Assembly: GCA_965287045.1 (NCBI GenBank)
Contig: OZ336885.1
Coordinates: 63,364,001-63,428,000 of the forward strand
Direction of reading: 5' to 3'
DNA length: 64,000 nucleotides
Source of the DNA: Carcharhinus amblyrhynchos
Taxonomy: Eukaryota
This document shows positions 54 through 63,671 of the stretch, in pieces; the first letter of the stretch is position 1, and the number at the start of each line of letters is the position of its first letter. Position numbers and translations under genes: made by a program. The notes under the pieces are model-generated. The model was not told the origin of the DNA, searched no databases, and saw only the letters and a list, made by a program, of their open reading frames with translations.

Positions 54-68
54 CTCTCTTTAGTTTTT
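54..68 (-). CDS. 15-nt microexon (E)KLKR
   Basis: tttctgatctcattgcag|aaaaactaaagagag|gtaggc; similar to exon 22785-22799. Confidence 0.65.
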
Positions 69-3000
69 CTGCAATGAGATCAGAAATATTTTTCTGTTGT
101 TATAAATAAGGGTGTATTACTGACCATATGGTAAAATCAGGAATCGTTTCTGCAGTGCGGAAAAACAAACCGTACGAAGGGAACATCATTGTTGAAGCAA
201 ATGGAGATGGATGGACAAAGACGCTGCCCAAATGCACTGCTATAACACATAGTGTGAGCTGAGATCATTGAGCATCTTGAAATGCCATTGTCATTTTTAT
301 AGCATTGCATTCAATTCATCATCTGTTTATTTATCGTTTCTACTGACTTTAATACTCCTTGTGTTGTATGATGGTGCTTTCCTTCAAGTTACCAGTTGAT
401 ATCAAGTTCTGTCACGACAACTTTTCCTCAGGACTAAACCATTTATGACGATATTTGCAGCGTATTAACAGAAGGGCAACTGTTGTGCGGCGTTTCCAAA
501 TACTAAACTGATGCCCAGTAAAATGAAAACAACTGTTGTGCCCATTGTGCTTCACAGCACCTCAGTTTACCATATAACACAGAGTTGAACAAACTGAACT
601 AAAGGAGGAAACGTTTTGAGGAATGGCTCTACTCAGTTGTTGGTTTATATGAGATATGAGACAGCTTTCCATGACCTGTTTCTGACGTCGGTATTGTAAT
701 AGCGCGCCTAAATCTTGGATAGAACCAGAACTTATTGTAGCACTCATGTTGTCAGTACTATCCGTGGAACATTGTCAAAGACTTTGATCTTTGTTGTATC
801 CATTAAGTTTAGTTGTAATCGGTTTCATTATTAGTGTACTTAGTTGGATGAAACGTTTCACGTGTAATGTTTCACGAGGGCATGGTTTGATGAAAATTTA
901 CTTAATTTTCTTAATTTACTGGGATTTTTTGCATGTATAACGTTGCCATATTTCGGGATGCTATGTTCTGCACTGACTGGTTGTTGTTTTTTTCGTCATT
1001 GCAGATGGTGAATTTATTCATTTTGCTCTTCCCTTCGATGATTGGATGTGCTCAAGCTTTCACTTACGAACAGAGTAGGCTTGCAGTACATTTAATGCAT
1101 TCAATGTTATATTGTTTACATCTATGCAGTTTGTCTGCTGATTGGAAATCAAGAAACCTTGTGTCAAGCCTGGAACTGTTTCATAAACAATTTTAAGAAA
1201 TGTCACAATCTCCTCGTGGAATACCCTCCTGAAATTATCATTACAAGTTTGGAGATACGGCGGGTTCAATGCAAATTTGCGAATCGGGTATGTTGCTGGA
1301 TTTTAAACATTCAGTCCCTTTCTCCTCCTTCTGATGGGCCAGAAAGGCACAGAGATGTTCAGTATTTTTTTCCCCCTTCTTTCTGCCCCAAATATTTGTA
1401 AGTCACATCAGCGCCAGTAGCATTTTACACAATATTGTTTCTTTTCATTTTGAAGATACGGTACCTTACCCCCAACTTCCCTGTGGTGACCAGAATGAAG
1501 AATATAGCGATTGGCAGTTGCGTTTGTGACAGGTATATTGCTGAGAAAGATACCGTGTGTCTCAATTTCTTCTTGCTTTCCTCATCTCTAATAATCTAAG
1601 TAATAAGCAGATGTAGCCTCCAGGACGCACAAGATATTTAGGAAATATACTATTGAGCCACTCATATTGTTGCATGTTGAAGCCAGCAACAGAGAGTATC
1701 TTCTATTTCATTGAGTGCCTGCGATTCTTCTAAATGGTTTTCATTATTGTTGAGCGTTGATTCATCATTTGATTTTGAATGTTCACAGATAACAATTAAA
1801 AAAAAAATCGTTGACAATGATTGAACAGATTTGTGGAGTGGAGTTAATTCAGATCAATTCTGGAGAACTCGTTTCCGAATGCACACTGTGTCATGCGTCA
1901 CAACTTTGGAATGGCGTGGCTGTTATAATCCAGGGTAGAAACCACAATAGAGTTTAAGATGTCAGACTCAACAATAATTCTTGAAAATTGAAGTTGGAAC
2001 GGGTGGGTAAAAGATGTTACTTGAGATGTGTTTCCGCCGATTCACCTGGGAGCTGTTATTCAAGATTAGAGATGACATACCGAATCAAAATTAGCTTTCA
2101 CCTTCACGAATTACAAAAAAAAACAAAGTCCGATTTTGCATAAGCCTTAACCACTAAACGCATTGTTGCACCGAAACAGACCTCCCTGTAACACACACCC
2201 TCCCGGGAATTAGCAAAGAAAAGTAAGAATGCTCAAGTGCTTTTTTGGGCTTTGTAAACTCTGCTGTTTATTTTTCCTTTTGTTGAATAATTGAATCTCT
2301 GGCTTCTCCGTTCTGGAAATCACTGCATCTGGAGGTAGAGTTAGTGCCACCCTGTGAAACTAGCTTGCAGCATACGCAGCAAAGTGTTAATTCTTTGAAG
2401 GCAAGTAAAACTGCAAACATCGTATCACCAGAATTTATAATGCCAGCCAGAGTCGCTATAACAGTGCTTTTTTAGTCTAAAATCCAACAGCTTCTAAATA
2501 GACAGCACGAATGGTTAAATATCCATGCAGCAGGCATCACAATTGCTATTTTGTCGTTATCTTTCCAGAGTTGAACTCGGATCCGCAGCTTATATGAGAT
2601 ATGACATTCATTCGAATAAAGATGTCGTTTGTCAACCTAACTTCGATTGTCACTTCGATGATGGAGTTTTTTTTTTCTTGTTGTTGCATGGAAAAATTGC
2701 AATGTTTTATGCAAATGACTGGCATATGAATGTCAGATGACGTGAGTTGCACAATCTCCTTGTTCTGAAACTAGGTGTGCACTGATAGAAATGTAATCGT
2801 AACGTCCGAAATGTATATCTAAACCATTGGGTTTCCTTGTGCAGTCGGATGTAAAGGACGGAGTTTTAGAGGTTGCACCTCTAATGTTTGCAAAACGTCG
2901 GGCACATTGAACGGGATCGTTTGCAAGTACTGGTTCAGCTGGGAAATCCATGTCCGCACTGTACTGACTCGTGTAATGAATTGTTTTGAAATCATCACTG

Positions 3001-3199
3001 GCGTTACTCAATTTGGAGGAAAAATGACAGTCTTATTCATTTTCCACAGATACCTGTATTGCCTAATTTTACTCATTTAGGGCATGCATTTGTCAGTGAT
3101 GAGCCCAGAATTATGTGCCGATCCGCAATTAACAAGAACAATGATTCAGTGTACTATTCTAAATGAATCGTTGCAGTCTCTGTTGTGTCACGGAAACCA

Positions 3200-3635
3200 G
3201 CGCGATTTTAGAGGGCTTGGCTGTGAAGAGAGATGAGAGAAACTTGATTTCGTCTCACTGGACCGACGGAGGTTGAGAGGCGAATTGATAAATGTTTACA
3301 AAATTATGAGGGGCATGGACGGAGTGGATAGTCAGAAGATTTTTCCAAGGCTGGAAGACGTATACGCTCAGCTCAAGGTTTAAATAAAATGTACATGCCT
3401 AGTTTTGTTTTACAAAGAGAGTGATGTGTGCCTGGAAGTCGCTGCCTGGAGAAGTAGTGGAAGCAGATAGGATAGTGTCTTTTAAGGGGCTTCTGGACAT
3501 ATGCACGAATACGAGGGAATAGAGAAATATGTTCCCCGAAAGGGGAGGGGGTTTTAGTTAAATCGGGCAACATTGTAGACGTAGGTTTGGAAGACCGAAG
3601 GGCCTGTTGCCATACTGTAATTTTCCTCGTCCTTT
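3200..3635 (+). mobile_element. CR1 LINE 3' fragment, decayed
   Basis: ORF2 C-terminal-like segment (cgacggaggttgagaggcgaattgataaatgtttacaaaattatgagggg) and CR1-type tail gaagggcctgtt. Confidence 0.8.
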
Positions 3636-4064
3636 CGTTTTTACTGAGATCCGATATTTTGACAAATAAATTATAGGACAGGGATATATTTACACGTAGG
3701 CATTACAAATCAAGATGACACACTGTTCTGTTAATCATCGCTGAATATTTGCAGGAGAGGTGTCAAACATCGGATAAGAATTATTACATTTCATTAAGTT
3801 TGCACTTTTTATTAAGGAACAGATTACCCCGTCCCAACGCTTCCCCATAACTTTCTGCGTTTACCACAACCCATTCACCAGTGTTGCACATCCTCGGACA
3901 GAGTAGTCAAAAGAAACGCACTGAAACAGGGCGATAATGTTTAAGGTCCAGTCACCGTCGCATAATGCTGGAATAAAATACGTTTCCTTTCGTTGTGAGA
4001 GAGCAGTGTTTATTTGACGATATGAGCGCTTTGTTCAGCGTGGTTTAAAAACAAGATGAGTAAC

Positions 4065-4120
4065 GTTGGATGTGCAATTAACCAGTAATTTGAGAATTAC
4101 TGGTTGATTACGCGTTCAAC
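4065..4120 (+). repeat. 56-nt inverted repeat (26-bp stem hairpin)
   Basis: Arms 4065-4090 and 4095-4120: 21 Watson-Crick pairs, 4 G-U pairs, 1 mismatch, loop tgag. Confidence 0.85.
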
Positions 4121-5598
4121 TTCACTTTTTTTTTGACTTTGCAGTTACTGCGTGTGCCCACCCTGATGTATCGTCACATGAAGACACCCCACTTTATTAT
4201 TATTGTCCTAAATGCGTTTATACCCATTCATTTTGTTCTTCTCAAGGATAAACCATCCCTTCTCTCAGCTGTGGAACGTTGAAGATTAGGTAATGGATCG
4301 TTTTTAATTTCAACGGATGCTGGTTGGTACTGGTTCGCTTGAAATTGCGCTTTTCTGAAATTGTTGGGCTTCAAGCACTCTGGAGCATAAAAACGTAAAA
4401 AAAAAGAAATCCTGAAAAATTCACTTACTGCCAGATCACTCCGCTCCCGTATTATTTAATAGTAATTCTCAACTCAGCATCAATGACCTCGCCAACACAG
4501 AAAGCATTGGTGAGTGTTTAATCTCCTCGATCATTTCAGTGCTACGTGACTTCATCTTGATGCAAAATACTTTAAACACAACTTCACTTTACTTCGTCCT
4601 TGCCACTCCCAGAAGCAACTGTCGGTGTTTCCATCCAATCTTGCGACTGCCAACACACATCAGTCGTGGTTAATGTCCATTGTCTTAAAACAATACATAT
4701 GTAATTAATTCATGTTACGTGCGGTTGCCGTGCTCCACAGCTGCCCTCGTAAATAGAAGAAAACCAGCAGAGAACACGACCTACGAAAATTCATTCACAA
4801 TGGAGCAGTGTATGATAGATTGGCACATGCCTTCTTAACCAATGTGCACAAATCAGGCTGCACATGTGTTCGCTTCAAACAGCAGAGCTCACCAATAAAA
4901 CAAAATATTGAGAGGATGGCTTGACTTTTTAAAAAATATTTTGTGGATTTGAGCAGAGTCTGACTGCGGTCATGCAAGAACGAACACAGCGAGGTAAAAT
5001 AAGAAATGAAAACAATTATGTAAATTGTGCGGCCCACGTCGAGTGAAAGAATGAAACATCACGCCAACCCCATGCGCATCCCATATAAAATATCTCAACA
5101 GAGCGTGTGCCATTAACAAAAAAAACTTTTTCTCTGAAATTGCGTTCTGCAGTGATTCCCATTCAGCTGTTCTTAATTATCTTTATTATTGTCTAATTCG
5201 GACTGTGCATCCGAATGCACTTCAGTAAAATTATGAATTCCGGTCTCAGAAATCGTTTAAAATTCCGAAATCATTGGCAAGTTTTCAAGCTTTTTGCCTT
5301 GCCCTCATCAGTACAAGTGTAGAAATGCGAACATTCAAGGCACTATAGCAGTTGAGACTGAAAGGGGAGAGTGGCACGCGTTAACAAACACTGTCCGTTT
5401 GCCCGAGACGTTGCTCTGGAGAAATCAAGAATGAACCACAGTCCATTGAATGTTGTGACATAGCAATGCCGTTGTATTAGCTCTGATTTTAAGTGAAAAA
5501 AAAAATGTTTGCCGAAAAGGTGAAGCTGCTTTTCAACATAACTCGCTTTTTTCAATCATAAATGAGCCATGTTTACTGGATCTAACAACTTTGCTTAC

Positions 5599-5613
5599 GT
5601 GGAGTCGATGCCG
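5599..5613 (-). CDS. Tentative 15-nt microexon (A)ASTP
   Basis: gatcattatcag|cggcatcgactccac|gtaagc; good donor, weak acceptor, frame-compatible. Confidence 0.3.
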
Positions 5614-8027
5614 CTGATAATGATCATCACGATGTTTAATAAAAGTGTCAAAATCGAATGCGAACATCTGACAGGGATTTTTTTTTTAATGGGGCGTCTC
5701 TCACTCAGTCTGATGGCCACGATGTGGATTGTGCGGCTTAATTCAGTCAATTAATCATAGGGGCACCCAATCGATTGGCTTCACACTGGAACAACAGTAA
5801 AACCCAGACATTCTTGCTAACTATTTGCCAGGCAGTACGAGTTTTTTTGGGGTGAAAAGAAACACCTTCTAATTGAACACAAAACATAGAAAAGATGGCA
5901 GAGTGGACTGTTTGAAATTACATGCTTAATCCGTTCAGAATTTCTGAAAGAAAAACGTCGGAGAGAATTTTGAAGTGGAACAGGTTCTTTTCATGTATGA
6001 ATTTGCTAGAGTTCGGTAAAAAAAAAGAGCTCTCAGATCAGGATAATGGTTTAAAATAGTGCTAATCTTTTAGAGTGTTCAACGGCTGATCGCAATGACA
6101 AACAGCATGTGTCTCAAATCGTCCTTGTAAGAAAACTGATCAGGAAAATAGTATGTAAGCTGGACGTATTATTGCCCCAATACGTATATTCACCCAATGT
6201 AGATAGCAATTGCGATCTTTTTTTTTTGTATTGTGGCACATATTACAGTGTACCTGCACCCACATATAGGGAAAATATGGATCTTTGGAATGATGCATCT
6301 CAGCAGTGAATTGGTGGACACTGTATGCAACGCGGCGTTCTGCTGATTTATTTTCTGTGCATTGAGAGCATGTATGGGAAATGATCCCACAGTTAAGTAT
6401 TTTTTTAATAAAAAAGTGTATTTTTAGTGGACGTTGATAAAAAAAAAATATATTGTTACTCGCAAAAGTAAGAGGGCATCCCATTGTTTCTCCAATTATT
6501 TGGAACTACGCTGAATTATTAGATTTTAAAACCATTATGAGGTAGACATTTCTGCGGACATGCAGTGGCTTTGACGACTTGTGGCATTCACTGCGACAAA
6601 ACTGCACTCTGTCGAATGAGATGTAATTGTTGCCACAGAATTGAACAATATTTTGAGCCAACACCAATATCTATGTTATACGACAGATAAGGGGCACAAT
6701 TCACAATGCTCCCTGGAATGACTAAAAAAAAAGTTTCCTTGCTGGTAACATGCTAATATCTATAACAACCAGGCCGTTCTTGCCGACACCACAAAAAAAA
6801 GAAGGCATTTACCTCCTGAATAATCTCAAATGCTCTGATGTTGACGTTCAGAGTTGTAATTTTGCTTGATTAAACGTGCCAAAACCATCTTACGAAACAG
6901 CACATCAAAATGTTCTCTGAATATAACACCAATATGACTAGGTCTTGGATATATGTTATTGAATTTGAACTTGGCCGAACTCTTGCTTTTTTTTCTTAAT
7001 TTAGCCATCTAAATAGTGTTGATAAGTCACCAATCAGTGTCAATTTCCCCAGCATTAAGACACTTTTTTTTATTATGAAGTGGTGTTTTACTTATTCCGA
7101 CTTCGAGCTTTTATATCTTTATATATTAATAATTAATGTTCAGCTAAAAAAAAAATGCTCTCACCCAATTCTTCCTGAGTATTGTTGAGGTCTTGGAGTA
7201 CTGAAAATTCATGTCAGAAGAAAATATTTCACCGGCTTATTTTATTTAATGCATATTAATTGTTTGCAAACGTTCCTTAATTTTAACGTGTCAATCAATC
7301 GAAGCACGTACGTTGACATTGTATTGGTCAGAAACTGTATTTTTTTTTCAATTTATTTTACTATAGCCACAAACATTAGTTACGGCGAAAATGAATGTTG
7401 TTTCTTGCTCGTTATGCAAACAAAGCACTCCGCGAAATAAATGAGAAGGTGCAGTCCGTAGCATTACAGTATCCTTCGGGTGTCCGGAAACATCAATATC
7501 ATTTAAGGTGAACAAGGATAAATTAGAACAATAATAGAGATTTGTTTAAATGGATGGATACAGTTTTAGAAGTCTGGAACAACAGTAAAATATACAACTG
7601 GAGGCATGTTGGGGATTGCTCACACGATTTCTCCAGGCACCTGCGCCATCTTTTATCAGATGGTGTTGATTGGCGCCAGCGTTTGTTTTTCTCATTTATT
7701 TGTTCGTATTGCCGCTCAATTTATATGGCAAGAAGCAATCAAATTTGTGGCAAAATATACCAAGGAAAGCAATCAAACAGAATGTCGGAAATGCTACAGT
7801 GTTATTTCTTTGCATTGATCGTAGTCTGTTTGAAAGTTCGGTGTTTTGCAAATAACAATAAAAGAAGGTTGCAGATAATTGACATACGTCCCTAAGTGCG
7901 TTTTTGTCTTTGGTTTGAGATCTGCTTCCGAAGCTGCCAATCAGTGAGTGACAAAAAACAGAAGTATTTATATTGACAAATTAGAGAACATGTTTAAATT
8001 TGCTTTTCAGCGAAGTAGCATATGTAA

Positions 8028-8165
8028 AAAAGAACATAAGAACACAAGAAATAGCAGCAGGAATCGGCCGTCTAGCCCTTCGAGCCTGCCCCGCCATTCA
8101 ACAAGATCATGGCTGATCTGAAGTGGATCAGTTCCACTTCCCCGCTTTCTCCCCATAACCCTTAT
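8028..8165 (-). mobile_element. CR1 LINE 3' tail fragment
   Basis: aagaacataag tail repeat plus cccttcgagcctgccccgccattcaacaagatcatggctgatctg, matching the tail of the 60260 copy. Confidence 0.85.
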
Positions 8166-8393
8166 TTTCAGACAAGAAACTTCAGGCAATGTTTCAGACA
8201 AGAAACTGTCTGACGAAGCAGGACTGCGCAGTCTTATTTTCGCATTGCCGCAACTGCAAGGGAAACACACGGATTGCCATTTTTTTTTCATCGAATCTAT
8301 TCCGTTAACTTGTCAAAGCACTACTCACTTTTTTCGATATATTTTCAATAGAGTTTGATATCCTGGCAAGAGGTTGGCGAAATCGCAGCTTAC

Positions 8394-8420
8394 CCAAGTT
8401 CTTTTCATCGGTTTCTTCTC
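8394..8420 (-). CDS. 27-nt microexon (R)EETDEKNL
   Basis: ctaatttccttttctttcag|gagaagaaaccgatgaaaagaacttgg|gtaagc. Confidence 0.8.
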
Positions 8421-9004
8421 CTGAAAGAAAAGGAAATTAGTGTAATGGTAAGGTGAATGCGGCATACGTTAGAGTTTTACCATGCCCGAACGATTACATT
8501 TTCTCTGATCAGAAGATTTTAAATTTAACTGCTTATGTTTTGCTATCATTTTCATTCCTGAGAAGGTATGCTTGAAGTTGTATTTGCGTAAAGTAGCTAC
8601 CATCTCAAGGAGGTGTGGTTATATATATATAAAAAAAGGTTAACGCCCAATACTGCATACTTTTTTGTAGCTGAACATTCGCGTAGCTCATTTTCTAAAT
8701 TCCCCTCATATTTAACATAAATGAACAGGCCATTTCTCTCGAAACCCTAATCGCGATTCTCAGCTCCACAGGAGATGATCCTAATGGATTATTCCTGGGA
8801 ATGTCAACGTACTTGTTTAGACATCTCACCCGTGTTATGGTTCAGTATTAGTTTGATTGTCTTTATTCGATTTAATAGGGTTCGATTTATTGACATACAG
8901 TAACAATCATTGTTTTGTTTGTGCCACAACGTCAAATCATACACGACATTGAGAACGAAAGAAAAAAAACATATTACGGCCATAGGCAGTGTATTTAGAA
9001 AATA

Positions 9005-10292
9005 AGGCATAAGAACATAATAAATGGGAACAGGAGTAGGCCATCTAGCCCCTCTAGCCTGTCCCACCATTCAATAAGATCCTGGCTGAACTGATATGAT
9101 AGTGGTTTATTTCCACTTCCCCACCTGCTCCTCATGAACCTTAACTCCCTTCTGATCAGAAATCTATCTACCTGGAACTTAAACATATTTAACGAGCTAG
9201 CCTTCACAGCTTCAATGGACAGAGAATTCCAGGGATTCAACACCCTCTGAGAGAAGAAGATCCTCCTCAACTCTGTTCTAATTTGGCTCCCACTTATTTT
9301 GAGGCTCTGACCTCTAGTTCTTGTTTCCTTTCTAAAGGGAAATAACCTCTCTGCCTCCACTCTGTCTCGCCCCTTCATTATCTTATATGTCTCTACAAGA
9401 TCTTCCCTCAGCTTTCTCAACTCCAACGAGTACATGCCCAATCTATTCAACCTTTCCTCATAAGCTAACCCCCTCAGCTCCGTTTTCAAACTGGTGAACC
9501 TTCACTGTACTCCCTCCAAGACCAATATGTCCTTTCGAAAAACTGCACACAGTACTCTAGTTGCGGCCTCAAAGACACTTGTACAATTGCAACAAGACCT
9601 TCCTACTTTTACACTTCATTTCCCTCATAATAAAGGCCAACATTCCATTTGCCTTCTTGATCACCTGCTGCACCTCCGATTCATGCACGAGGGTGCCCAG
9701 GTCCCTCTGCATGATGATTTTGGTTTTTTTTTACCTTTTAAATAGTAGTCCATTTTACTATTATTCCTTCCAAAGTGGGTAACCTCACATTTGTGAACGT
9801 TATATTCCATCTGCCAGATCCTCGCCCACTCATTTAACTTATTCAAATCTCTCTGCAGAATTTCCACATCCTCCACACAATTCACGTTCCCACTCATCTT
9901 TGTGTCATTAGCAAAATTTGTTACCCTACACTAGACCTCTTCTTCCAGATTGTTTATATATATAGTAAAAAGTTGAGGCCCCAGCACTGATCCCTGTGAC
10001 ACACCACTAGTCACCAACTGCCAGTCAGAAAAACACCCATTTATTCCAACCACCTGCTCCCTGTTAGATAGCCAATCCTCAATCCACGCTAACTAAGCTC
10101 AACTCCATGTGCCTTAATCTTCTGCAGCAACCTTTTGTGAGGCACCTTATCGAACATCTTTTGGAAGTCTAAAATCACCACATCCACCAGTTCCCCTCTG
10201 TCAACCACACACGTTACGTCTTCATAAAAATACAGTAAGTTTGTCAACCACGACTTTCCCTTCATGAATTCATCCTGCGTTCGCTTGATCAA
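9005..10292 (-). mobile_element. CR1 LINE, 5'-truncated, frameshifted RT and 3' UTR
   Basis: ORFs 10089-10292 (LDFQKMFDKVPHKRL), 9661-9897 (WQMEYNVHKCEV), 8995-9489 (YEERLNRLGMYSLE). Confidence 0.95.
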
Positions 10293-11256
10293 ACTTGAAA
10301 AAGATTAACATAATACAAGGAAGGTCCAATCAAAATTTAATGACAGCAAGGAAGGTTTTTTTTTTCAGTCGTTTGATACATATCCTTAGATATTTGCATT
10401 TGTTTTTCCGAAAGTACGTGGAAGATAAATAAATCCCACCAATGTCTGAGAACATGAACAAACGAAGGTAGTTCATTTGTTCCCAACATTTGCTGCAGTG
10501 ATGTCTACATTATTCAATTAAGCAGAATGACTATGATTCCCCTGTATTTCTTGCTGTGACATTAGTATAAATATCGCACACATGGCAGGATGTATTCATA
10601 ATCTATGACAAATAATTCTGACATGATGAAATCATCTTTTCAGCCACCACATTGGCCTCCTCTTTGAAAGAGTTAAATTACATGGTTGATTTGTAGTCGA
10701 ACTGTAAATGCCAGTTTTGAGTTAAACTTTTGTTCCCATTATCAATATCGTAATAGATATGCTGACAAAATTATGTCAAGTAATGTTGATGTAATCTGCA
10801 TTGTGCACACAGCCAAGTGTTGAGCTATTAAAGATCCGCACAGATTTAAAGATTTCACAAATTCCAAGTCCTTTTTTTTCACAAAAATTGTAAAGGAATG
10901 GACGACACACAATATTCTAGGAATTATCATATGTATTCATCATATGTATTCTGGCAACAGAAGGGCGAGTAATGTCCACAATTAACCTACCCCGGGCAAT
11001 CTGCTACGTCCTTGATATGCCAAACATTCTCTGACCACGGTTGAAGGAAAACTTTCGGAAAACATGTTAGAAGATCATATTTTCCGTGGACACGGTTTCC
11101 CAAGGCTAAACCATTATTTGTGCAGGCTCTCGGCAACATTCTGTTACTTTGTGCATGGTTAGTATACCTAATCCGCCATGAAAATGGGAATTCAGCAACA
11201 ATTAAGTTGGTTCAAATCCATGAAAACTATACCATTGAAGTCCAGAAAGTACTTAC

Positions 11257-11283
11257 TGCACTTCTGCTCCAGTTCATCCAACT
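11257..11283 (-). CDS. 27-nt microexon (E)LDELEQKC
   Basis: gtatatttttcag|agttggatgaactggagcagaagtgca|gtaagt. Confidence 0.85.
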
Positions 11284-11454
11284 CTGAAAAATATACAATT
11301 TAATGGTTTGCGAAACCGAACAAGATACATCTCTGTATTGCTTTGCCGATATCTGTATATCCAAATTTCCTGATCAGAATGAGGCAAATGTTAGGAAATT
11401 GAAGCAATCAGCGAATAATGAGTACAATTTGCAGGCAGAGAAAATTGATTTTGC

Positions 11455-11650
11455 TTTGATTTGATTTATTATTGTCATGTGTGTCCGCATGTAGTGAAAA
11501 GTGCTGCTTTTTGCACGCTATACAAACAAAGCATGTTGTTCGTAGACAAGGGAACGGGAGAGTCGAATTTCATGCAAGGTAGGTTCATTCAAAAATCTGA
11601 CGGCAGCAGTGAAGAATATATTCTTCAGTCGGTTGGTATTTATTCAACAC
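11455..11650 (-). mobile_element. Non-LTR retrotransposon 3' end fragment (Rex1/Babar-like)
   Basis: tttgatttgatttattattgtca tail followed by aaaatctgacggcagcagtgaagaa...ttcttcagtcggttggta; recognised from memory of shark repeats. Confidence 0.5.
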
Positions 11651-15285: not shown

Positions 15286-15319
15286 TGTTCTGTAAAACGA
15301 AACATGCAAGTACCGCAGG

Positions 15320-49719: not shown

Positions 49720-49755
49720 CAAGTCGTTCAACTTTAGCCTCAAGGTCTTTTATTT
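49720..49755 (-). CDS. 36-nt microexon (E)IKDLEAKVERL
   Basis: gcgctgattttcag|aaataaaagaccttgaggctaaagttgaacgacttg|gtgagc. Confidence 0.85.
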
Positions 49756-50020
49756 CTGAAAATCAGCGCACAACTACGATCAATTTGATTTCTTTGGAGA
49801 TTCACTTTCTGTAGCCTCGCTTGCTTTGACACACAGATAGCTCCTTAATTTGTCTACAGACTCTGACGGGTGACAGAGTGGGGAAATTTAATCATTCATT
49901 GCAACATTACAGCATACATGAAAGCAATTGACATCCATAGATGGTCAGGCCCATTGTATTACTACTGATGCCGTGTCAGAGCAGCCACCTTGGGTGCACA
50001 GCATCGGGATCTCAAACATT

Positions 50021-53000: not shown

Positions 53001-53738
53001 TAAACGACTACCACACACTGTCTAATGCTGTACTTCACCCTTACCCGCTAATGAATTACAAGTTAATAACTTTGTGCTGTGTACCCCTTCAATGTGGTCC
53101 TAGCCCTGGATGCAATTCGGAAGTGGAGCTGTCCTGCTTGATGCCCCCCCCCACCCCCCCGTTGCCTGTGATGGCCTTGCTGTACGTCCACTGGATGGCT
53201 GGGAGGTAGAGTTTCCCAGCTGATTTGGGGACTGCACTGTTTCAGTACCCCTCTGTTCATCTCTGGGGCAGGGGGGAAGAAGGGGCTCCGGTGGACAGCA
53301 CTGAGGCCAGAAATGTGTGTGGGCACTGTGAAGACTAGCAATGAGACCAGTGACGTGTGTGGGGAGGGCGGCAAGGGTTTGGGTGAGGGTCCAGAAATGA
53401 GACCAGCGTTTTGTGTGTGGGTGTTGCGGGGGGCAACAATTCAGCCAACGATGAATGTGAGTTTTGGATGACAGTGGTTTGGGTGCTGGGAGGTCTCTTC
53501 AGCTATTGGCCAGCGATGTGCATGAGCGAGTTCCTCCTCGTCCCGCGGATTTCAGACACTTTGGTGCGAACAGGCCACGTTTCCTCCCTTCCCCCTCCCC
53601 AGCGTTTAATGATGTTCACACTTGGGACATCCGCAGTGGAGATAGTGCGGAGGTTCGGATGAAAAGCTGAACTGAAAAAAAAGTTGGAATGCAGAATAGT
53701 TTTCCTACCAATTCAGCAATTTTAGGAGAAACGCCCCC
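50021..53738 (+). mobile_element. Decayed PIF/Harbinger DNA transposon with transposase remnant
   Basis: ORF 51982-52233 (GSAHDSFV...GWLWGGKRCPLMSWL...RYNEAHEATR) followed by MRFCCFD matches the HARBI1-like DDE C-terminal half; degenerate TIRs ggccgcgattctcc (50021) and ggagaaacgccccc (to 53738). Confidence 0.8.
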
Positions 53739-53928
53739 ATCATTTCTGCATGAAGAAGTGATACCTCCTCATAATACCAGGGCAACACCACCAATTGCAT
53801 AGCCACCCGTAAGTGTACTGTTAAGCATTTGGAGGTGTCAAAGGCTATTCAAAACGTCCATGGATGATGCTAAATTCCGGGCAAAGGCTGATCCATTAAA
53901 ATTATATCGACATTCTCTTTTCGTTTAC

Positions 53929-53955
53929 CTTGCTCTTTCTTCGCAACTTCTTCTT
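53929..53955 (-). CDS. 27-nt microexon (E)EEVAKKEQ
   Basis: ttttttcatttcttgtag|aagaagaagttgcgaagaaagagcaag|gtaaac. Confidence 0.85.
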
Positions 53956-54599
53956 CTACAAGAAATGAAAAAAAAAAGTGAATGTAATGCTCTAGCCCGT
54001 GGCGCCATCACATTGACAGACAAGTGTTGCTGTCCATGGAGTAATTGCCAAATGAAGACAGTGCCTTAAAGCACTGTTAAGTGCAAACACACCGGGAATA
54101 CATGCACTCACAGAGGATTTCAGAGTAGCAGAAATTATAATGCGTCCAGCTACTTATAAATCAGTTCTGATTTTAGATCGATTGGGAAATTCCTCTTGCA
54201 ACCTTTGACTTTTTTTTTCGTTAACGTTGATAAACGTATAATGGACAATACTCTACCAAGAACAGTGGCTTTACTGCACCATTGTTTCAGACTAGATTAC
54301 GTTGGTCAACTTTCTATGGTGGATAACATTTCCAATTTAGATATTTTTTTGCCAACATAAGCCCATACTGAAATATATGTGGCGCCCATTTGTTCGAATA
54401 TCACAAAGCGAACGAGTTCTATTTCCGAATTTGGACTCTCAGCACAACACGTCAAGTATGATTGCGGCAAATATCTGACTGGAGAACAAAACGTAGAAAG
54501 ACGGCCCAGGAATGGAGCATTCGGGGCATTGAGTCAACTCCCCCCGCCCCCCCCCCCTCACCCCTCCCCCGCCGTGCTCAGTTTGATTGCTTCGCGTCA

Positions 54600-54892
54600 T
54601 AAAAAACAGTTTGTCACATGTGGAATTGCATTGGAGTTACTGTGGAAATTTTCTAGTTGCCACACTCTGGCGCGTGTTCGAGTACATTGAGCGAGGGCTT
54701 GTCGTTGCCAGTGCACCGAAGCAACACATCTTGCTGGCTTGTTGGAGGAAAATGGAGCACCCGAAGGAAACCCACACAGATACGGGGAGAACATACAAAT
54801 GCTGCGCAAACAGTAACCCAATCCGGAAATAGAACACCGGTCTCCAGCCCTGTGAGGCATCAGTGCTCCCCATTGTGTCACTGTGTTGCCCA
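54600..54892 (-). mobile_element. HE1-type SINE
   Basis: ggagcacccgaaggaaacccacacagatacggggagaac core; gggcaacacagtgacacaatg head on minus strand. Confidence 0.85.
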
Positions 54893-54899
54893 ATGAAAT

Positions 54900-56190
54900 G
54901 TGATATCCTGATCCCCCTTACATACATTTTAACAATTTAACCCCCCGGGATATATCCAATTCACCTGGCCTCAAATTGATTATGGGTTTGCGAATTCTAC
55001 AACTTCACAACTCTTCGGTCATGATTTTTTTCCTCATTACAGTTCACAATGCTCGACATTTACACTCAAAAATGACCTCGATTTCTGAACTCCACCACTA
55101 TCCAAGCATTCTTTTTTGGGATCTGCCCTATCAAATGTTATTAGCATGTTTCTATGAAATTCAGACTCACGCTTCCAAAAGCCAGACAATAACGTTCACA
55201 ATCACTTCGTATATTTTCAAATAAGAGACCTGTCATCCCAGGAATCATCATGATAAATATGTGTTGCACTCCCTCCATTGTATGGATACAATTACCTTGT
55301 TAAGTCGGCCTAAACTGAACTTAAGCCTTCAAGTGCTGCCTCACTAATGTTTATACGAAAAAAAAACTTCCCTATTCCTCTAATCAAATCATCTCGCTAC
55401 GAAGGCCAATATTCCGTTGGTCTTTTTTTTTACAGCCTTGTGTTTATTTTCTGTGACTTATTCACGAGGACACATTCCCTCTGAGTATGATCCAAATTTC
55501 TCAATTTAAGTGCATTTAAATAATATCCTTCCTTCCTGATTTTTGTATAGAAGTGGATAGTCTCACATACATCCAACTGATTTTCCATCTGTCGTGAATA
55601 TGCACACTTCCGGAGGGACATGAAGAAGTTTCGGCCAAACAGTTTGAAGTGCAACAGGTGATGTTGCAATCACAATGTACCTGAGCGCTCACTTAAAAGA
55701 AGAGCAGCCCTCTGAAAGCTCGTGATTCCACATAAAAATGTTGGGAATTAACCTGTTGTTGTTGAAACTTATTACGATAAATATAAACGATCACTTAGCG
55801 TGTTTAAACGTCACTGCAGCCTTATCGCAGGTTAACTTTCTGCATTGTGAAGATAATGCACACAATCCCTTCTTGCAAATCATTAATATATGTACGAATA
55901 TTTTGTAGCACCGTTCCATGGGTTATGTTAATAGTGAATGTCTGCCAAACGGCAAGAAAACGAACACAGTGGATGCCATTTGGTCGCAAACATTGTCTCC
56001 ATCTCAAGGCATTCCCTGTTATCGCTTATGCATTAACTTTGTGCGGTATTCTGCAAAGAACAACATCGTCAAAATATTCTGAACGTCAGACTAAATAGCA
56101 TACATTCACAGTTTTCTTTGGTCACCCGATCACGTCTTCAAATGAGTCCCATTAATTCACCAAAGGTTTCCCATTAGTAATTCATGAAAC
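54900..56190 (-). mobile_element. CR1 LINE, heavily decayed
   Basis: Degenerate ORF2 (ORF 55430-55669 CETIHF...YYLN; gaaggccaatattccgttgg). Confidence 0.7.
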
Positions 56191-56599
56191 TCTCCTTCCA
56201 CGGTGAATGGTTGGTTTGCTTTTGTTCAGTTACTCTGTTTTTGTTTTCTCGGTGGAAATGCATTGCTTGGCATACAAACAGAGGTCAGACGGTGGGTTTT
56301 GATACTTTGCGTCATCGCAACCTGCCTTAGAACTAGCTTCAACCAATTGCATCAGAAAACCTATGGACAACTTAATCCGGATTTTTTTTTCTCTTCTGCA
56401 CAATTTTCAATTTCATTGCTTTCTGCTCTTTTCATGACTTGTGCCTTAAAATTTTGAACCTTACTTTGTAAAAACAAAATATGGGAACAAATGTTTCTGC
56501 TGCCTTTCCTTCACCAGGAACATTCCCTCCTCAAAGAAATAGTTTTTATTTCCAGTTTGTTGTTCATTATCTAGTTCACAAGATCTAAATACATCTAAT

Positions 56600-58340
56600 T
56601 TGTATATTGGCTTTGTAAAGGGGAAGTCTTGCTTTACGAATCTGGTAGATTTTTTTGAGGAGGTGACAAAAACGTTTGACGAAGGACGAGCTGTTGATGT
56701 CGTCTATGTGGATTTCAGTAAGGCGTTTGACAAAGTCTCTCATGGTAGGTTGGTAGAAAAGATTAAGGCTCATGGGATACAAGGCCAGGTATCTAGAGGG
56801 GTGGAGAACTGGTTTGCTAAGAGGAGACAGAGAGTAGTAGTGGAGGGGTCCTTTTCTAGCTGGAGGTCTCTCACTCGTGGTGTGCCGCAGGGCTCAGTAC
56901 TGGGACCTCTTCTCTTTGTAGCATATATAAATGACTTGGAAGAGGGAGTAAGTGGTGTGATCAGCAAATTTGCAGATGACACTAAGATGGCTGGATTGGC
57001 GGGCAGTGAGGAGCAGTGTCTGGCAATACAACGGGATATAGATAGACTGGTATATTGCGCAGATATATGGCAAATGGAGTTTAATCCGGATAAATGTGAG
57101 GTGATGCATTTTGGCAGGGATGAAGTGCGGGGGTAGTTATATGATAAAGGGTAAGCCTATAAAGAGCATAGAAACGCAGCGGGACCTCAGGGTAAAAGTG
57201 CACAAGTCTTTGAACGTGGCAGTACAAGTGGAGAAGGCTGTGAAGAACGCCTATGGAATGTTAGCCTTTATAGGAAGAGGTATAGATTGTAAGAGCTGGG
57301 GTCTGATGTTGCAGTTGTATAGAACGTTGGTGAGGCTGCATTTGGAGTACTGCGTACAGTTCTGTTCACCTTACTACCGGAAGGACATGGAGACTCTGGA
57401 CAGAGTGCAAAGGAGGTTTGTCAGGATGTTGCCTGGTATGGAAGGACAGGGTTATGAATAACGATTGAGCAAACTGGGGCTGTTTTCCCTTGAAAGACGT
57501 CGACTGAGGGGCGATCTAATAGAGGTGTATAAGATTACGATGGGTGTAGATAGAGTAAACAGTGGTAAACTATTTCCTATGTTAGGGACGCACAGTACGA
57601 GGGGCCACGGGTTTAGGGTGAGTGGGGAGAGATATAACACGGATATTAGAAGGAGGTTTTTCACACAGAGGGTACTGGGGGTGTGGAATGCGCTGCTAAG
57701 CAAGGTGGTGGAGGCAGGCACGCTGGATTTGTTTAAAAGTTACTTAGACAGGGGCATAAGTGGGTTGAAAATGGGAGGATATAGGAGACTGTTTTAAATA
57801 AGGTTCATTAGCATTGGGACGTCCTTGGTAATGTATAAGGATGACGAATGATACTAATGTTTTTCTCTTTTAATCCACAGGTTTTAACTCGGTCCGCTTT
57901 GTTGCCCAACGAGGGGCATACACGCATTGGGCCGTTCTAGGGCTGCTCTTGGATGTTCGAGAGTAGCCTGGTGTTTCATATCGTTAGTGTGCGCTTAAAC
58001 TGGACCAGGTTTTGGGCAAAACGACAGCTCAGTGATTATCACTGTTTTCTGTGCAGACACATGGATTTGGGCCAGTGTCTGTGGGAGTTTGAGCATTCTC
58101 CCCGTGCTTGGCTGGGTTTTCTCCGGGTGCTCCGGTTTCCTCCCATACCCCAAAGATGTGCTATTAGGCTGATTGGAGGTAATAAATTGTCCCCAAATTA
58201 GTTTCCCTCAATGTGGAATGCCATAATCATAGATAAGGGTCATGGGTGGAAGGGGGACTGGTAATGTTGGAATGGCGGCGCGGGCTCGCTGGGCCGAAGG
58301 GTCTGTTTCCGGGGCTGTTTTTGTTCTTTGTTCTTTATTT
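56600..58340 (+). mobile_element. Young CR1 LINE (RT to ORF2 end) with extended 3' region containing a spacer and an HE1-type SINE; copy 2
   Basis: ORFs 56600-57136 (DFSKAFDKV, GVPQGSVLGP, KFADDTK), 57111-57461, 57465-57797; SINE core about 58075-58200; gttcttt tail. Confidence 0.95.
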
Positions 58341-58984
58341 TATTAAGCGTGGTGTTTGCACCTCTTGTGTGTTTTGGATTATTTACTGCAATTCTGCTGA
58401 ACGCCATTGAATTCTGAGAAAAAAAATGGGCTGTCATATCTCTATTGACATTCGATTTTAAAGCGGATCAGAAATGTTTCCCAAATGAGTTTAAATTACA
58501 GCGACATATCATAACATCATTTTTTTTTGTCTGAAATAGAGCCTTGCCATTTATCACTTCCAATGCTTGCAACCCAAAATTCCGTTAGAGATTGAAAACG
58601 ATTAGCTAAATCCTTCTTTCTGCAACTAACCGTCACACAATGCATTTTCCTCGCGACATAAACATGCATTTCTTCAGTGATATTGGTTTAATTCACTATT
58701 TTTAATTGCAACAACGCTTAAGGAAAGAACTATATTATAAATGTTGACGTGGAATTGAACAAAAAAGTCACATTAAGTAGCCAATGTGTTTTGCTGAGAA
58801 TTCGGTTGGAATTTAAATAATGCACGTCTGCTAAATTGATAATCTGCATTTTGCAGTGCAGTTGAATTTATATTGAGGGTATTTTCTTGTTCTTCATGAA
58901 TTAAAGTAAATTATTTGCTCCGTGATATTCCATTAAGATTGTCAACACGTCTGCAACTTCTAGTTAACGTAAAATCAGAAACAT

Positions 58985-59990
58985 GGGCCCGATTTTATAA
59001 AGACGTTGCATCCGTTTTGGGCGCGAACGCTTGGTAAAGTAGATTTTGAGGTGAGTAGCGCGAACCGCGCCCGTTCCCCCTTTTACCTAGCGGCAAAATG
59101 GCCGCAATAGGCACAAATACTGAAATGGGCGCGAGGTCAACTTAAATGTCTTTGCGTGGATTTGCATTTACTTTATTGGATGGACGCCCACATTTATCTG
59201 CATTGCTTCCTTTATGAACGCGTTCGCCGGCTCACAAAAGGAACAAAAGTTAAATGGTTCGGAAAGGTTTGTTTCGGGATATCCAGATTCTATAGCTGTA
59301 ACTTCAAAGCTTCTAGCGGCTCTGTAACTCAGATAGATGATGGCAGTGTCGGGGGGTGCGGGGGGGCGGGGGGGGGGTTGCGGCGGTACGGGGGGGAAGC
59401 CCAGCCAGATGGATCTGTTTTTTTTAGGGGCGGGTTGCAGGAGAAATGAGGCAGCTCATATCATTCTCTTGTGGATGGTGGGACGGAAAGGAGACAAGAT
59501 CGTTCTCTGGTGGGAGGATGAGGGAGGCGGGCCAGACATCCTCTGGGTGGTCCGGCACGGCGAGGGCGGGGGGAAGTGCAGAATGTTTTCTGTACGGGGG
59601 GACGAGGAGCAGGGATGCTGGACAGACTTTTCTCTGGTGGGGGGCTGGGGTAGGAGGCAGGGGAGAGGGCAGGAGGTCCGCAGAGAATCTGCGGGCGAAT
59701 AGTGGGGTGAAGGAAGCGTTGCTACCACTTTGCGTGCAATCGGTGGAGGGAGTTGGGGGATCGGGACAGGCGGTTACGATCCGTCTGGGTAGCTTTGGGC
59801 GGCGGGGGTGGGGGAGGGTGGGTGGATACGGGGGATAGCTCTGTTGTGGGCGTGGAGCATGCCTACGGGGCAAGCAGTCATGTGCGCCTCGGGAGAGATG
59901 CGCCAGGGACGCGGTTTTCAAATTTATTAAATGTGCATGCTCGATTGGTGGCTTCGTTCGCAGCTGCAGTGTTCTGGGCGCGATAAGCCC
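58985..59990. mobile_element. GC-rich non-autonomous DNA-transposon-like element (possibly Harbinger-related)
   Basis: Starts gggcccgatttta, similar to the 50021 TIR; abrupt GC-rich block; right end unclear. Confidence 0.45.
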
Positions 59991-60077
59991 CGTCCACAGG
60001 CTCCTTCAGTGGGATTCAGAATCGCTGTTTTTTTTCTTTTCGGCAGATTGCGTATGTGACCCTCAGAACAAATTTAC

Positions 60078-60104
60078 AAGTCGGATCTGCATCACTCCCT
60101 TCTT
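60078..60104 (-). CDS. 27-nt microexon (E)EGSDADPT; downstream partner not found
   Basis: ttttgcttctaattgtag|aagaagggagtgatgcagatccgactt|gtaaat; ends in T, so direct joining to the 53929-53955 exon gives TAA. Confidence 0.5.
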
Positions 60105-60259
60105 CTACAATTAGAAGCAAAATGCTAAAATCGGGATCATGTTCTAGATAGGTGGAAGCCAACATATGTTCTCCCCGAGTTATGACACAATAGCAAAAAA
60201 AAAACAAAACGTCTGCACAAACTCATGTTATTACGAACTAAGATGAAGGCTTCAAACAA

Positions 60260-61085
60260 GATGAAGGTGGTCCACTTTGGTCGGAATTATGGTAGGAAGG
60301 ACTATTACTTACGGGGCGAAAAACTGCAGCAGGCGACGGTGCAGAGGGACCTCAGGGTCCTTGTGCATGAGTCGCAAAAACCCAGCTTGCAGGTGCAGCA
60401 GGTGGTCAGGAAGGCGAATGGGATGCTGACCTTCATAGCGAGGGGGATTGAATATAAAAGTAGGGAGGTCTTGCTGCGGCTGTATAGGGCATTGGTGAGG
60501 CCGCAGCTGGAGTACTGTGTGCAGTTTTGGGCGCCGTACTTACGCAAGGATATTTTGGCCTTGGAGGGAGTGCAGAGGAGGTTTACTAGGCTGATGCCGG
60601 AGTTGAGGGGGTTGGGCTATGAGGAGATGCTGAATAAACTAGGATTGTACTCGTTAGAGTTTAGAAGAATGAGTGGAGATCACATTGAGACGTATAAGAT
60701 GATGAATGGGATGGATAGGATAGAGGTGGAGAGACTCTTCGCGCTCAGAAAGGACAGTAGGACTAGGGGGCACAGCCTCAAGATAAAGCGGGGGGGGGGG
60801 GGGTGCGGTTTAGAACGGAGTTGAGGAAGAGCTTCTTCACTCAAAGGGTGGTGAATCTCTGGAATTCTCTGCCCGTTGAAGTGGTGGAGGCTCCCTCGCT
60901 AAATATTTTTAAGACGCGGGTTGATGGATTTTTGATAAGAGAGGGGATTAAGGGTTATGGGGAGAGGGCGGGAAAGTGGAACTGAGCCACGACAGATCAG
61001 CCATGATTTTATTGAATGGCGGGGCAGACTCGAAGGGCTGGATGGCCTACTCCTGCTCCTATTTCTTATTTCTTATGTTCTTATG
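60260..61085 (+). mobile_element. Young CR1 LINE 3' portion
   Basis: ORF 60225-60824 (LVRPQLEYCVQFWAPY), 60803-60985 (FFTQRVVNLWNSLP), ttcttatg tail. Confidence 0.95.
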
Positions 61086-62063
61086 AAGATGTATGCAACG
61101 GTGTAAGGAAAGTAATTCACCTGGTTGCAATGGCTGAAAGGATTTTTCGTGGGACCAGCTGGTTATTATTTCATGAACATTGGTTCTATAACATTTCGAT
61201 TGTCATATCAATTGAATTGTAATTGTTCATTTACACCAGGCTTATTTCCTGATCAGACGGCTTTCATATCAGGGGGATTAAAAATTATGGATCTCTTTTC
61301 CTTTCCGTTTGGAAGACAGGGGGTGGGGGGGGATTCATTTAATCATATATGATCCCAATTGAGCTGGAAGGAGTTGTTTGTGAGGGGTTTTTACGAGTGA
61401 GAGTCAATTGAACATGCGAACATAGCTTCAAGGAAACTGACCCGTCAGTTGAAAGATGTGTAGAAATTACTTCTTGTACATATTGTGACTGGAGCTTTCT
61501 TCCCCAAAATCATAGAGAAGGTTGGATCAGCACGAATATATAAAGCAGAAATGAATACTTGACAGATTGAAGAAGTGCGAGTAATGCAATATTAACAAAA
61601 AATAATAGTTGACACTGTTTAGGATTACAAATTTGTCCGGTAATGTTACATATGTGGATTGGGAATAACAGAAGTATTCTTAATGTTAAGTATGTTAACG
61701 AAATGCCAAATATGTTTCCCACATATATTTTTCAATGTTCCCTCGCAATTTTTAAGCCATCATTCTATGAAGTTGGGCGGCAGGGTTGAAGGTGGTATAC
61801 TGTGTGCGCCGTCATTTCCTGGTTTAAAAAAGCGAACTTACAAATATTCGTCTGTTAATTGTAGGCCTTAATCTTGGTTGCACAAAAAAAAACAAAATCC
61901 TGACACTGTATTTTCATCATGAAATTGAAATGGCCCTATACATTAGTGCTAAAAAAAAAATCGGTTTCACATAATTAATTTTCGATACAAAAAATCAGCA
62001 CGCCTATATATGCCTAGTTCGTCAGTTTTATCTCATTAAGAAAACAACGAACTAAGGATCTAC

Positions 62064-62090
62064 CTTTTTGTATTTCTCTCAGCTTTTCTT
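62064..62090 (-). CDS. 27-nt microexon (K)EKLREIQK
   Basis: cctaattccttgacag|aagaaaagctgagagaaatacaaaaag|gtagat. Confidence 0.85.
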
Positions 62091-63632
62091 CTGTCAAGGA
62101 ATTAGGCGAATGGGAACATCATGCATTTCTTGAACTAGCTGAAATTTAAGTCGAGGCAATGACAAATTTCAGGTAGTTTAAGAAAGCGCCTTTGGAACCA
62201 GAGCAAATCTGCGTCTGCGTGTAGAGCTTCCTGGATTCTTCGTATAATCGTGTATATTGCAGCACACAATGTGACGAGTCGTTCTAGATCAGAGCATAAA
62301 AATTGCATTGTCTTGTCGGGCATCTGCCCTGCGCCCAGAAAACAAACACACATGAATCTGGACATTATATTTGCTTGGAGCATGTGCGAGGAAATTTTCT
62401 TAGCTGGAACTGAATACCTGACCGTTATGTTAACGCACACTGTCAACTTCCAGTCACGCTTGTATTTTTTAATATGAAGCAACTGAGATATTCCATCTAC
62501 TTTATTGAGTTACTTTTCCATGTCCAGGAAGTTCTGGACATTGTGGAGGAAATTCCTTTGGGCATACACAGGTACTCTAACCATGTGATAATGATCAGGC
62601 GCCTTGATCGTCCTTGTCATAGGCGGAAAAGATAATAGTGCACAGTAACTTTCATTATGATAGATAAGGTGACCATTCATGCAAAAGTAACGATAAACAG
62701 ATAGAAAATGCATGGCAGTTAGTTTTCAGAAATTGATTGACGTTTAACCTTAAACGAATTACGTTGGCTGGGGTTCGAGTATCTATACGGTATCGTGAAG
62801 AAATTTATTGAGGAGTCCATTTGCAGGAAAGACGAAAACAGGCAGGCATCATTACAGACAAGATGCACATTTGATCCAAAGTAAGGTTGCAAATGCAAAA
62901 TTTAAGCTACAAATGTGTCCGGTAATATTATATGCGTGGATTAGAAATAAGATAAACATTTTTGGCATTAAACGTAACGAAATGGCAAATATATATTCAA
63001 CCTGCTTCGTTTAATGATTCCTCGCAATTTTTCAGCTCTGGAAATGTAACACGTGCAATTCAGCCTTTTTGTGTTATAATTTTAGCACATTCTTCCGCCT
63101 TCCCCAAGCTTCACACTGGTATTTACAGCATTGCATATGGCTCAGACTAGCTACCCCAGAAATCCGTCTCAAGCATTCAAATTTCAAATTGTTAGTATGA
63201 ACTTCATCTCAGGTTATCTTCATGGAAAGCCTTTAATAATTGCAGATTCGTATCTATCTCAAATAATCCTTTTCTTGAATCATACAACTCAAACATGCTA
63301 ATTGGATTTCATTTTGCATCTCTTTTGAATATTTCTTTTCAATAAGAATGATTTGCAGCAGCAATTAACTGAATGAAAGTGGCTATTGTACTTGCTGACA
63401 GATTGGTCAAAGAAACGCATCCATCTCACATTGATCCGTAAGGGCACAGTCAAACAATTCGTTAAATACTCCGGAACTTTTTTGTTTTCTGTGCATGTCT
63501 GGAATTTATTTGAAAACAAAACTTGCCGACAGTTGTTTACTGCCACCTTTAGCCATCAAAACAATTAGCATTCTTCATTGTTCTTGCATAAATGTTATCT
63601 GCACAAATGGAATGCTAGATGTTTTGACTTAC

Positions 63633-63671
63633 TAATGTTTGTTGTGCAACGCCATATCTGGCTTTTCATTT
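63633..63671 (-). CDS. 39-nt exon (E)MKSQIWRCTTNI
   Basis: ttaacaaccatcag|aaatgaaaagccag...acaaacatta|gtaagt; strong donor, weak acceptor. Confidence 0.45.

What the first reader, a model, noticed from the sequence alone, without database searches (positions are those of the whole stretch)
54..63671. Hidden 64-kb microexon array encoding a coiled-coil-like repeat protein
Seen: at least 22 minus-strand segments of 15-48 nt with AG/GT ends, mostly with pyrimidine tracts. All have lengths divisible by 3 and are open in phase 1, and most create Glu at the junction. They join into about 225 stop-free codons rich in E/K/L, about 1% of the span, so ORF finders miss them. Established: symmetric phase-1 microexons encoding heptad coiled coils occur in butyrophilin-family genes, chicken BG antigens (21-nt exons) and TSBP1/C6orf10. 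Inference: this may be a shark BG/butyrophilin-like immune gene with a greatly expanded tail, or an unannotated lineage-specific coiled-coil gene. No Ig, transmembrane or B30.2 exon was seen, and exons were chosen by eye.
Basis: partly seen in the sequence, partly recalled or inferred. Interest (0 to 1): 0.85.

Follow-up and report, generated by a model that had tools for sequence, protein, structure and literature searches.

The report
Half-megabase shark microexon coiled-coil B30.2 gene
The tiny exons are real and form the middle of a roughly 495-kb shark gene whose about 110 mini-exons are predicted to spell a 160-nm helical rod ending in a B30.2 binding domain, one of six such giant genes that the protein databases searched hold only as short stubs.

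Summary
Confirmed, and much larger than the window. Nineteen minus-strand microexons in the window score confidently (plus strand and shuffles give almost none). They belong to an array of about 110 phase-1 exons, mostly 27 and 36 nt, over 490 kb. Joined, they give 1,087 stop-free residues with 3.5-residue periodicity. The array ends in a B30.2 (SPRY) exon 215 kb left of the window, which is under purifying selection. Five paralogues on the same contig also carry microexons; the nearest matches exon by exon with no intron similarity. Catshark and electric-ray database models join such units to the same B30.2 clade but are only 172-358 aa. No Ig, RING or B-box exon was found in the 92 kb upstream, so this is not shown to be a butyrophilin, BG or TRIM; it most likely makes a soluble coiled-coil rod with B30.2 heads. 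No RNA reads were available, the start exon is only a candidate, and function is inferred. This scan noted the same kind of array in other shark genomes before (three notes); new here are the B30.2 end of a 27/36-nt array and the six-gene cluster.

The parts
1..64000 (-). Middle eighth of the gene. The rest lies outside the window: array upstream to G000:C16:63,642,913 and a candidate first coding exon at C16:63,643,820-63,643,923 (unverified); array downstream to C16:63,154,480 and the terminal B30.2/SPRY exon at C16:63,148,848-63,149,368 (L080)
63002..63037 (-). 36-nt phase-1 microexon
62064..62090 (-). 27-nt microexon
58387..58413 (-). 27-nt microexon, weaker but fits a recurring class
53929..53955 (-). 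27-nt microexon (alternative acceptors 3 and 6 nt inside)
49720..49755 (-). 36-nt microexon; 81% DNA match over 52 nt to its paralogue exon
48202..48228 (-). 27-nt microexon
46355..46381 (-). 27-nt microexon
38513..38527 (-). 15-nt microexon
31614..31661 (-). 48-nt candidate, doubtful
28507..28542 (-). 36-nt microexon
28043..28069 (-). 27-nt microexon
25021..25056 (-). 36-nt microexon
22785..22799 (-). 15-nt microexon
19384..19419 (-). 36-nt microexon
18352..18378 (-). 27-nt microexon
17605..17640 (-). 36-nt microexon
16197..16223 (-). 27-nt microexon
11257..11283 (-). 27-nt microexon
8394..8420 (-). 27-nt microexon (alternative acceptors 3 and 6 nt inside)
7165..7200 (-). 36-nt microexon
54..68 (-). 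15-nt microexon

Best explanation
The window is the middle eighth of a roughly 495-kb minus-strand shark gene whose about 110 phase-1 microexons and one terminal B30.2 exon are predicted to encode a 1,270-residue protein that likely forms a soluble, parallel two-chain coiled-coil rod of about 160 nm carrying B30.2 binding heads. Shown: the exons, their grammar (36 + 27 nt = 21 residues = three heptads), the open joined frame, the B30.2 exon and its conservation, five paralogues, and growth of a paralogue by tandem block duplication. Inferred: that the exons are spliced together as listed, that the start is the exon at +279.8 kb, dimerisation, and the role as a long tether or scaffold in the manner of the butyrophilin/BG tail without a membrane anchor, with rod length adjustable because any exon can be skipped in frame.
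For: Strand- and length-specific exon excess. Joined frame 1,087 aa, no stop, K/E/L 50%, hydrophobic period 3.5; core positions 2, 5, 9, 12 of 36-nt exons are 77, 91, 88, 51% hydrophobic, others at most 16%; Ile/Leu at a and Leu at d fit a two-stranded coil (established rule, recalled). Exon-order alignment with the upstream paralogue scores 700 against 108 +/- 22 in 40 order shuffles, 62 same-size pairs; DNA matches between the two genes cover exons only (5 of 5 hits, 38-71 nt). Terminal exon: 1 listed (at most 3) changes in 519 nt against 16 in 682 flanking nt in a relative's DNA, 12 expected, P at most 0.002. Catshark XP_038668997.1 is 76% identical to a paralogue's B30.2 and carries four of its last microexons in order. 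Electric-ray XP_069797409.1 tiles into seven contiguous 9/12-residue units (71 vs 28 +/- 7, 0 of 300 shuffles), differs from its isoform by one 9-residue unit, and models as one helix plus a B30.2 fold. No Pfam domain at cut-off in 196 minus-strand open frames of the upstream gap.
Against: No junction read was seen for this gene. The start exon is a single candidate with weak likeness to the 36-nt class (top 1.8% of random frames). Both neighbours continue hundreds of kb upstream of the exons that match this gene's first exons, so this copy may be 5'-shortened and the family's true N-terminus is unseen. Exon profiles were trained on these loci, so the count of 110 is approximate (6 control hits on the opposite strand). 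Cys sits at core d positions (17 of 18 Cys in 36-nt exons), which suits an oxidising compartment more than cytosol. The match to the third paralogue is weak in the part held (250 vs max 248). An ESM Atlas cluster of 1,579-aa SPRY proteins without Ig or RING (score 0.85, lead only) may mean full-length relatives or analogues are already annotated somewhere.
Confidence: 0.55

Rival explanations
1. A secreted or sperm/egg/skin structural fibre: the same rod, cross-linked by disulphides between d-position cysteines, with B30.2 as an end cap or assembly domain.
For: Cys at position 5 in 14 of 43 36-nt exons and almost nowhere outside the core; six old, conserved paralogues rather than a fast-turning immune family; purifying selection on B30.2.
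Against: No signal-peptide-like first exon found upstream; the closest solved B30.2 domains belong to cytosolic proteins or tails.
Confidence: 0.2
2. A membrane-anchored butyrophilin/BG-like receptor: Ig and transmembrane exons lie far upstream, and this array is spliced from the upstream paralogue's 5' end, skipping its B30.2, as an alternative tail.
For: Heptad exons plus B30.2 is the butyrophilin tail plan (PMC4046983, passages); BTN3A1 is the top solved match (E 5.6e-31); 21-nt exons appear far upstream at C16:64.8-65.2 Mb; paralogue N-termini were not reached.
Against: 0 of 35 C2-set_3 matches on C16 with all 87 candidates scored; 0 of the best 150 V-set matches (of 1,793 candidates, so weak); it needs a 98-kb intron where the largest seen are 25 and 45 kb; B30.2 does not nest in butyrophilins.
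Confidence: 0.13
3. A 5'-truncated duplicate of the upstream paralogue that is decaying, or of which only the last exons are used.
For: The array starts in mid-repeat, and the paralogues have many more upstream exons; database models hold only the last few microexons.
Against: 110 exons keep splice sites and an open frame although introns no longer align with the paralogue; terminal exon conserved; no decayed exons in the upstream gap.
Confidence: 0.08
4. A TRIM-type E3 ligase with a hugely extended coiled coil.
For: Database names of the stubs are 'TRIM39-like' and 'zinc-binding protein A33-like'.
Against: No RING or B-box hit in the gap; 0 of the best 150 B-box matches (of 487) on C16; the stubs carry SPRY only.
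Confidence: 0.04

Closest known systems
Chicken BG genes (PMC4046983, PMC5938342; passages read)
   Same: Coiled coil built from many tiny exons whose first codon is split 1+2; exon number varies between genes; tandem gene cluster; poorly annotated by automatic pipelines.
   Different: BG has 13-37 exons of 21 nt (some 18 or 24), an IgV and a transmembrane exon, and is not described with a B30.2. Here about 110 exons of 27/36/15 nt over 490 kb, a B30.2 end, and no Ig found.
Butyrophilins (BTN/BTNL; PMC12841164 passages; PDB matches)
   Same: Heptad repeats followed by B30.2; BTN3A1 is the best solved match of the domain.
   Different: Defined by IgV, IgC and a transmembrane segment with a few heptads; here about 155 heptads, no Ig found, separate B30.2 clade, no Pfam PRY hit.
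Guinea-pig enterophilins (architecture recalled, not read; only the SNX1/EGFR role seen, in passages of PMC13749957)
   Same: As recalled: soluble, long leucine-zipper region plus C-terminal B30.2, no Ig.
   Different: As recalled several times shorter and mammalian; no sequence comparison was made, so likeness is of plan only.
Elasmobranch database stubs XP_038668997.1, XP_069797409.1/XP_069797411.1, GCB75680.1, GCC29436.1, GCC29430.1
   Same: Same B30.2 clade (SH-aLRT 100); two species' models carry 9/12-residue units.
   Different: Only 172-358 aa, named as TRIM-like or hypothetical; none holds the long array.

Membership tests
Butyrophilin (BTN/BTNL) | C-terminal B30.2 domain | tested here: met
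   SPRY E 9.3e-11; BTN3A1 match E 5.6e-31
Butyrophilin (BTN/BTNL) | Heptad repeats from small phase-1 exons before B30.2 | tested here: met
Butyrophilin (BTN/BTNL) | IgV and IgC exons upstream | tested here: not met
   None in the 92-kb gap; 0 of 35 C2-set_3 matches on C16. Paralogue 5' ends were not reached.
Butyrophilin (BTN/BTNL) | Transmembrane exon | tested here: inconclusive
   No hydrophobic exon candidate with good splice sites in the gap; simple scan only
Butyrophilin (BTN/BTNL) | B30.2 nested among butyrophilin B30.2 domains | tested here: not met
   Own clade on a long branch, sister group unresolved; quick tree, no shark butyrophilin in it
Chicken BG | Tail of 21-nt exons, no B30.2 | tested here: not met
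   1 of 110 exons is 21 nt; B30.2 present
Chicken BG | Single IgV plus transmembrane segment | tested here: not met
   (gap only)
TRIM | RING and B-box at the N-terminus | tested here: not met
   B-box search covers only the best 150 of 487 candidates
Enterophilin | Long leucine zipper plus B30.2 without Ig (recalled) | tested here: inconclusive
   Plan matches the gene model; N-terminus unverified; defining papers not held
Enterophilin | Sequence orthology | not tested
   No enterophilin sequence was obtained
Any | Spliced transcript joining the exons | not testable with these tools
   No RNA run could be laid on the locus

The most novel reading that the evidence does not exclude
Sharks and rays carry an undescribed family of six giant genes filling much of a 6-Mb region, each built from 100 to several hundred symmetric microexons (this one 0.5 Mb, neighbours at least 0.74 Mb and possibly over 1.5 Mb), encoding B30.2-tipped coiled-coil rods whose length is set by exon duplication in evolution and exon skipping in the cell: molecular rulers or fibres hidden from annotation because more than 99% of the gene is intron.
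Probability: 0.6. Interest if true: 0.85.

Novelty: new variant of a known kind. Interest (0 to 1): 0.72.

Why it matters
It is an extreme of microexon gene architecture: about 110 exons of 15-36 nt in 495 kb, 0.8% coding. The family predates the shark-ray split (ray and shark proteins group with one paralogue), yet the searched databases hold it only as B30.2 stubs named after TRIMs. It shows a class of gene that current annotation misses, gives exact coordinates for a splicing test, and offers a natural system for how heptad-sized exons build and retune long coiled coils, seen here in three 65-kb block copies within one paralogue.

Tried and rejected
No RNA holder listed for window 16001-26000; the one run found, X1, is DNA of a close relative (contigs cover introns, about 2.4% different). 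Homodimer prediction for the ray protein gave no verdict. The single-sequence fold was too poor to use (pLDDT 43). The HMMER search of cluster representatives never ran, so full-length relatives over 2,000 aa, or crowded out of the 7,999 candidates, are not excluded. Our B30.2 exon alone found no protein of 309-2,000 aa (weak by the tool's own note). A CD23-like C-type lectin end was considered and rejected: no lectin motif, B30.2 instead. Six-frame self-comparisons to find the gene ends were swamped by repeats or empty. The 5' ends of the two neighbours were not reached within the fetch limit. A genome-wide map of arrays by motif was not made, so arrays off C16 are not excluded. Paper searches (listings only) showed no paper on this family; subscription journals and supplements were not searched.
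Full report
Observation. A repeat scan already showed three related 27-nt segments with AG and GT ends on the minus strand. Profiles trained on 90 high-scoring exons, scored leave-one-out, give 16 window hits of 27/36 nt above 18 bits on the minus strand and none on the plus strand. Nineteen exons are confident (180 codons). The segments at 63633-63671, 60078-60104 and 31614-31661 are doubtful.

The gene. The window is G000:C16:63,364,001-63,428,000. Positions outside it are given on the window's scale (negative = left of base 1). In 1.66 Mb of contiguous neighbouring DNA the array runs from +278,913 to -209,520. The model has 110 exons (58 of 27 nt, 43 of 36 nt, 6 of 15, 2 of 18, 1 of 21), against 6 hits on the opposite strand; median spacing is 3.3 kb. 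Splice scores alone, with no peptide term, give length peaks at 27 and 36 nt on the minus strand only (24 and 25 against a mean of 2.1). Joined with their real junction bases the exons give 1,087 residues without a stop, 50% K/E/L, with hydrophobic period 3.5. A 36-nt plus a 27-nt exon makes 21 residues with core positions 2, 5, 9, 12, 16, 19, three heptads in register; 73 of 89 27-nt exons that follow a 36-nt exon have the hydrophobic residue at the expected place (three genes). Runs of 27-nt exons and 15-nt exons shift the register and may act as hinges (inference). Cys in 36-nt exons is nearly confined to core d positions.

The 3' end. A 173-codon exon with a phase-1 acceptor and stop lies at -214,632 to -215,152 and is SPRY (E 9.3e-11). 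In DNA contigs of a close relative it has 1 listed change (2 more unlisted changes may lie in or outside it) against 16 in 682 flanking bases; 12.2 were expected, P at most 0.002. This is one run and low depth (4-8), but it argues against a pseudogene.

The 5' end. Between the first microexon and the upstream paralogue's B30.2 lie 92 kb. Of its minus-strand open frames, 66 of at least 72 aa (a few just outside the gap) and 130 more (116 of 211 unmasked frames of 45-71 aa, 14 of 166 repeat-masked frames) gave no Pfam hit at cut-off; six frames across locus borders were not sent. Motif scans for Ig, lectin, RING and B-box gave no credible hit there. One exon at +279,820-279,923 has a strong phase-1 donor and an ATG right after an in-frame stop, 0.9 kb before the first microexon; if used, the protein starts there with no other domain. 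This is a candidate only.

The family. Six B30.2 exons on C16 (60.45-66.44 Mb) stand apart from all others in the genome (E 5.5e-38 or better against 1.8e-28 for the next; 150 of 306 candidates scored), and every one has microexons upstream. The upstream neighbour has 136 exons in the 680 kb held and aligns exon by exon with ours (700 against 108 +/- 22 in 40 shuffles that keep the size pattern), while DNA similarity is confined to exons. It and the convergent neighbour continue far beyond the exons matching our start; their N-termini were not reached. The convergent neighbour holds three tandem 65-kb blocks that match through introns (20 exon pairs), which shows how arrays grow.

Other species. 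Profile searches found 6 family members among 536 hits (120 listed) and 34 hits: catshark (358 and 172 aa), bamboo shark (178, 197 aa), electric ray (280 aa) and an unnamed 171-aa protein. In a quick tree of 82 B30.2 domains (76 of 159 fetched proteins, chosen by me, plus our six) the 12 family rows form one side of a branch with SH-aLRT 100; the branch is long and the sister group open. Ray and shark proteins group with one paralogue (99), so paralogues predate that split. No chimaera or bony-fish protein fell in the clade. The catshark model carries four microexons of the convergent neighbour in order; its N-terminal part looks repeat-derived by eye. The ray model tiles into contiguous 9/12-residue units and its two isoforms differ by the last 9-residue unit; that these models rest on RNA is my inference from how such models are made. 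Folded with an alignment, the ray protein gives a helix over residues 16-74 and a B30.2 sandwich (pLDDT 80). That the genome is a shark's is inferred from these matches.

How it likely works. All internal exons are multiples of three in phase 1, so any can be skipped or duplicated in frame (shown). The product is predicted to be a rod of about 160 nm with a terminal B30.2; by analogy with BG tails, described as coiled-coil dimers, and with the soluble BG 'zipper protein' that acts on actin-myosin (PMC5938342, PMC4046983; passages), the likeliest role is a dimeric tether or scaffold with two binding heads (inferred, 0.55). A disulphide-linked structural fibre (0.2), a membrane-anchored receptor spliced from far upstream (0.13), a decaying duplicate (0.08) and a TRIM (0.04) remain.

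Comparison and novelty. It works like a butyrophilin/BG tail but fails the Ig test for both families and the RING/B-box test for TRIMs within the DNA examined. Enterophilins are the closest plan as I recall them; I could not read the defining papers and saw only passages naming enterophilin-1. Nine paper searches (listings only) showed no description of this family; supplements and subscription journals were not seen. An ESM Atlas cluster of 1,579-aa SPRY proteins lacking Ig and RING (score 0.85) is an untested lead that could lower the novelty. Three earlier notes of this scan report like arrays in other shark genomes, one suspecting a SPRY end; I saw them after finding the B30.2 exon and did not test them. 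Verdict: real, a new variant of a known kind, interest 0.72.

Noticed in passing
G000:C16:60.45-66.44 Mb (B30.2 exons at 60,448,814; 61,084,215; 63,068,074; 63,735,740; 66,436,399): Five paralogous B30.2 exons, 38-50% identical to ours, each with 27/36-nt exons upstream in the stretches sampled.
   Followed up: yes
L168, L169, L195, L198 (C16:64.80-65.24 Mb): 21-nt phase-1 exons on the minus strand far upstream of the neighbour's array: either its 5' part (gene over 1.5 Mb) or another gene.
   Followed up: partly
G000:C16:62,765,936-62,924,070 (plus-strand paralogue): Three tandem blocks of about 65 kb, 79-88% identical including introns: recent growth of the array by block duplication.
   Followed up: yes
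L074:5883-9697 (+): Endogenous retrovirus-like remnants (zinc knuckle, protease, env Pfam hits) between two of the genes.
   Followed up: partly
L144:3763-10905 (-), running into L145: Retrovirus-like element with long open frames (574, 318, 851, 635 aa) inside an intron of the upstream paralogue; observed only.
   Followed up: no
L101:7788-8297 (-): 170-aa open frame with an IQ motif (E 1.6e-5) inside a paralogue intron; may be a retrocopy.
   Followed up: partly
L056:3361 and L056:3570 (+): Two inverted copies of a microexon next to its source exon at L056:985.
   Followed up: no
window 39842-43083, 56543-57797, 60186-60824, 8995-9540, 29363-30535: Decayed LINE-like reverse transcriptase/endonuclease fragments in the introns (by eye, repeats).
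   Followed up: no
window 53929-53955 and 8394-8420: Tandem acceptors 3 and 6 nt apart that would shorten the exon by one or two residues in frame.
   Followed up: no
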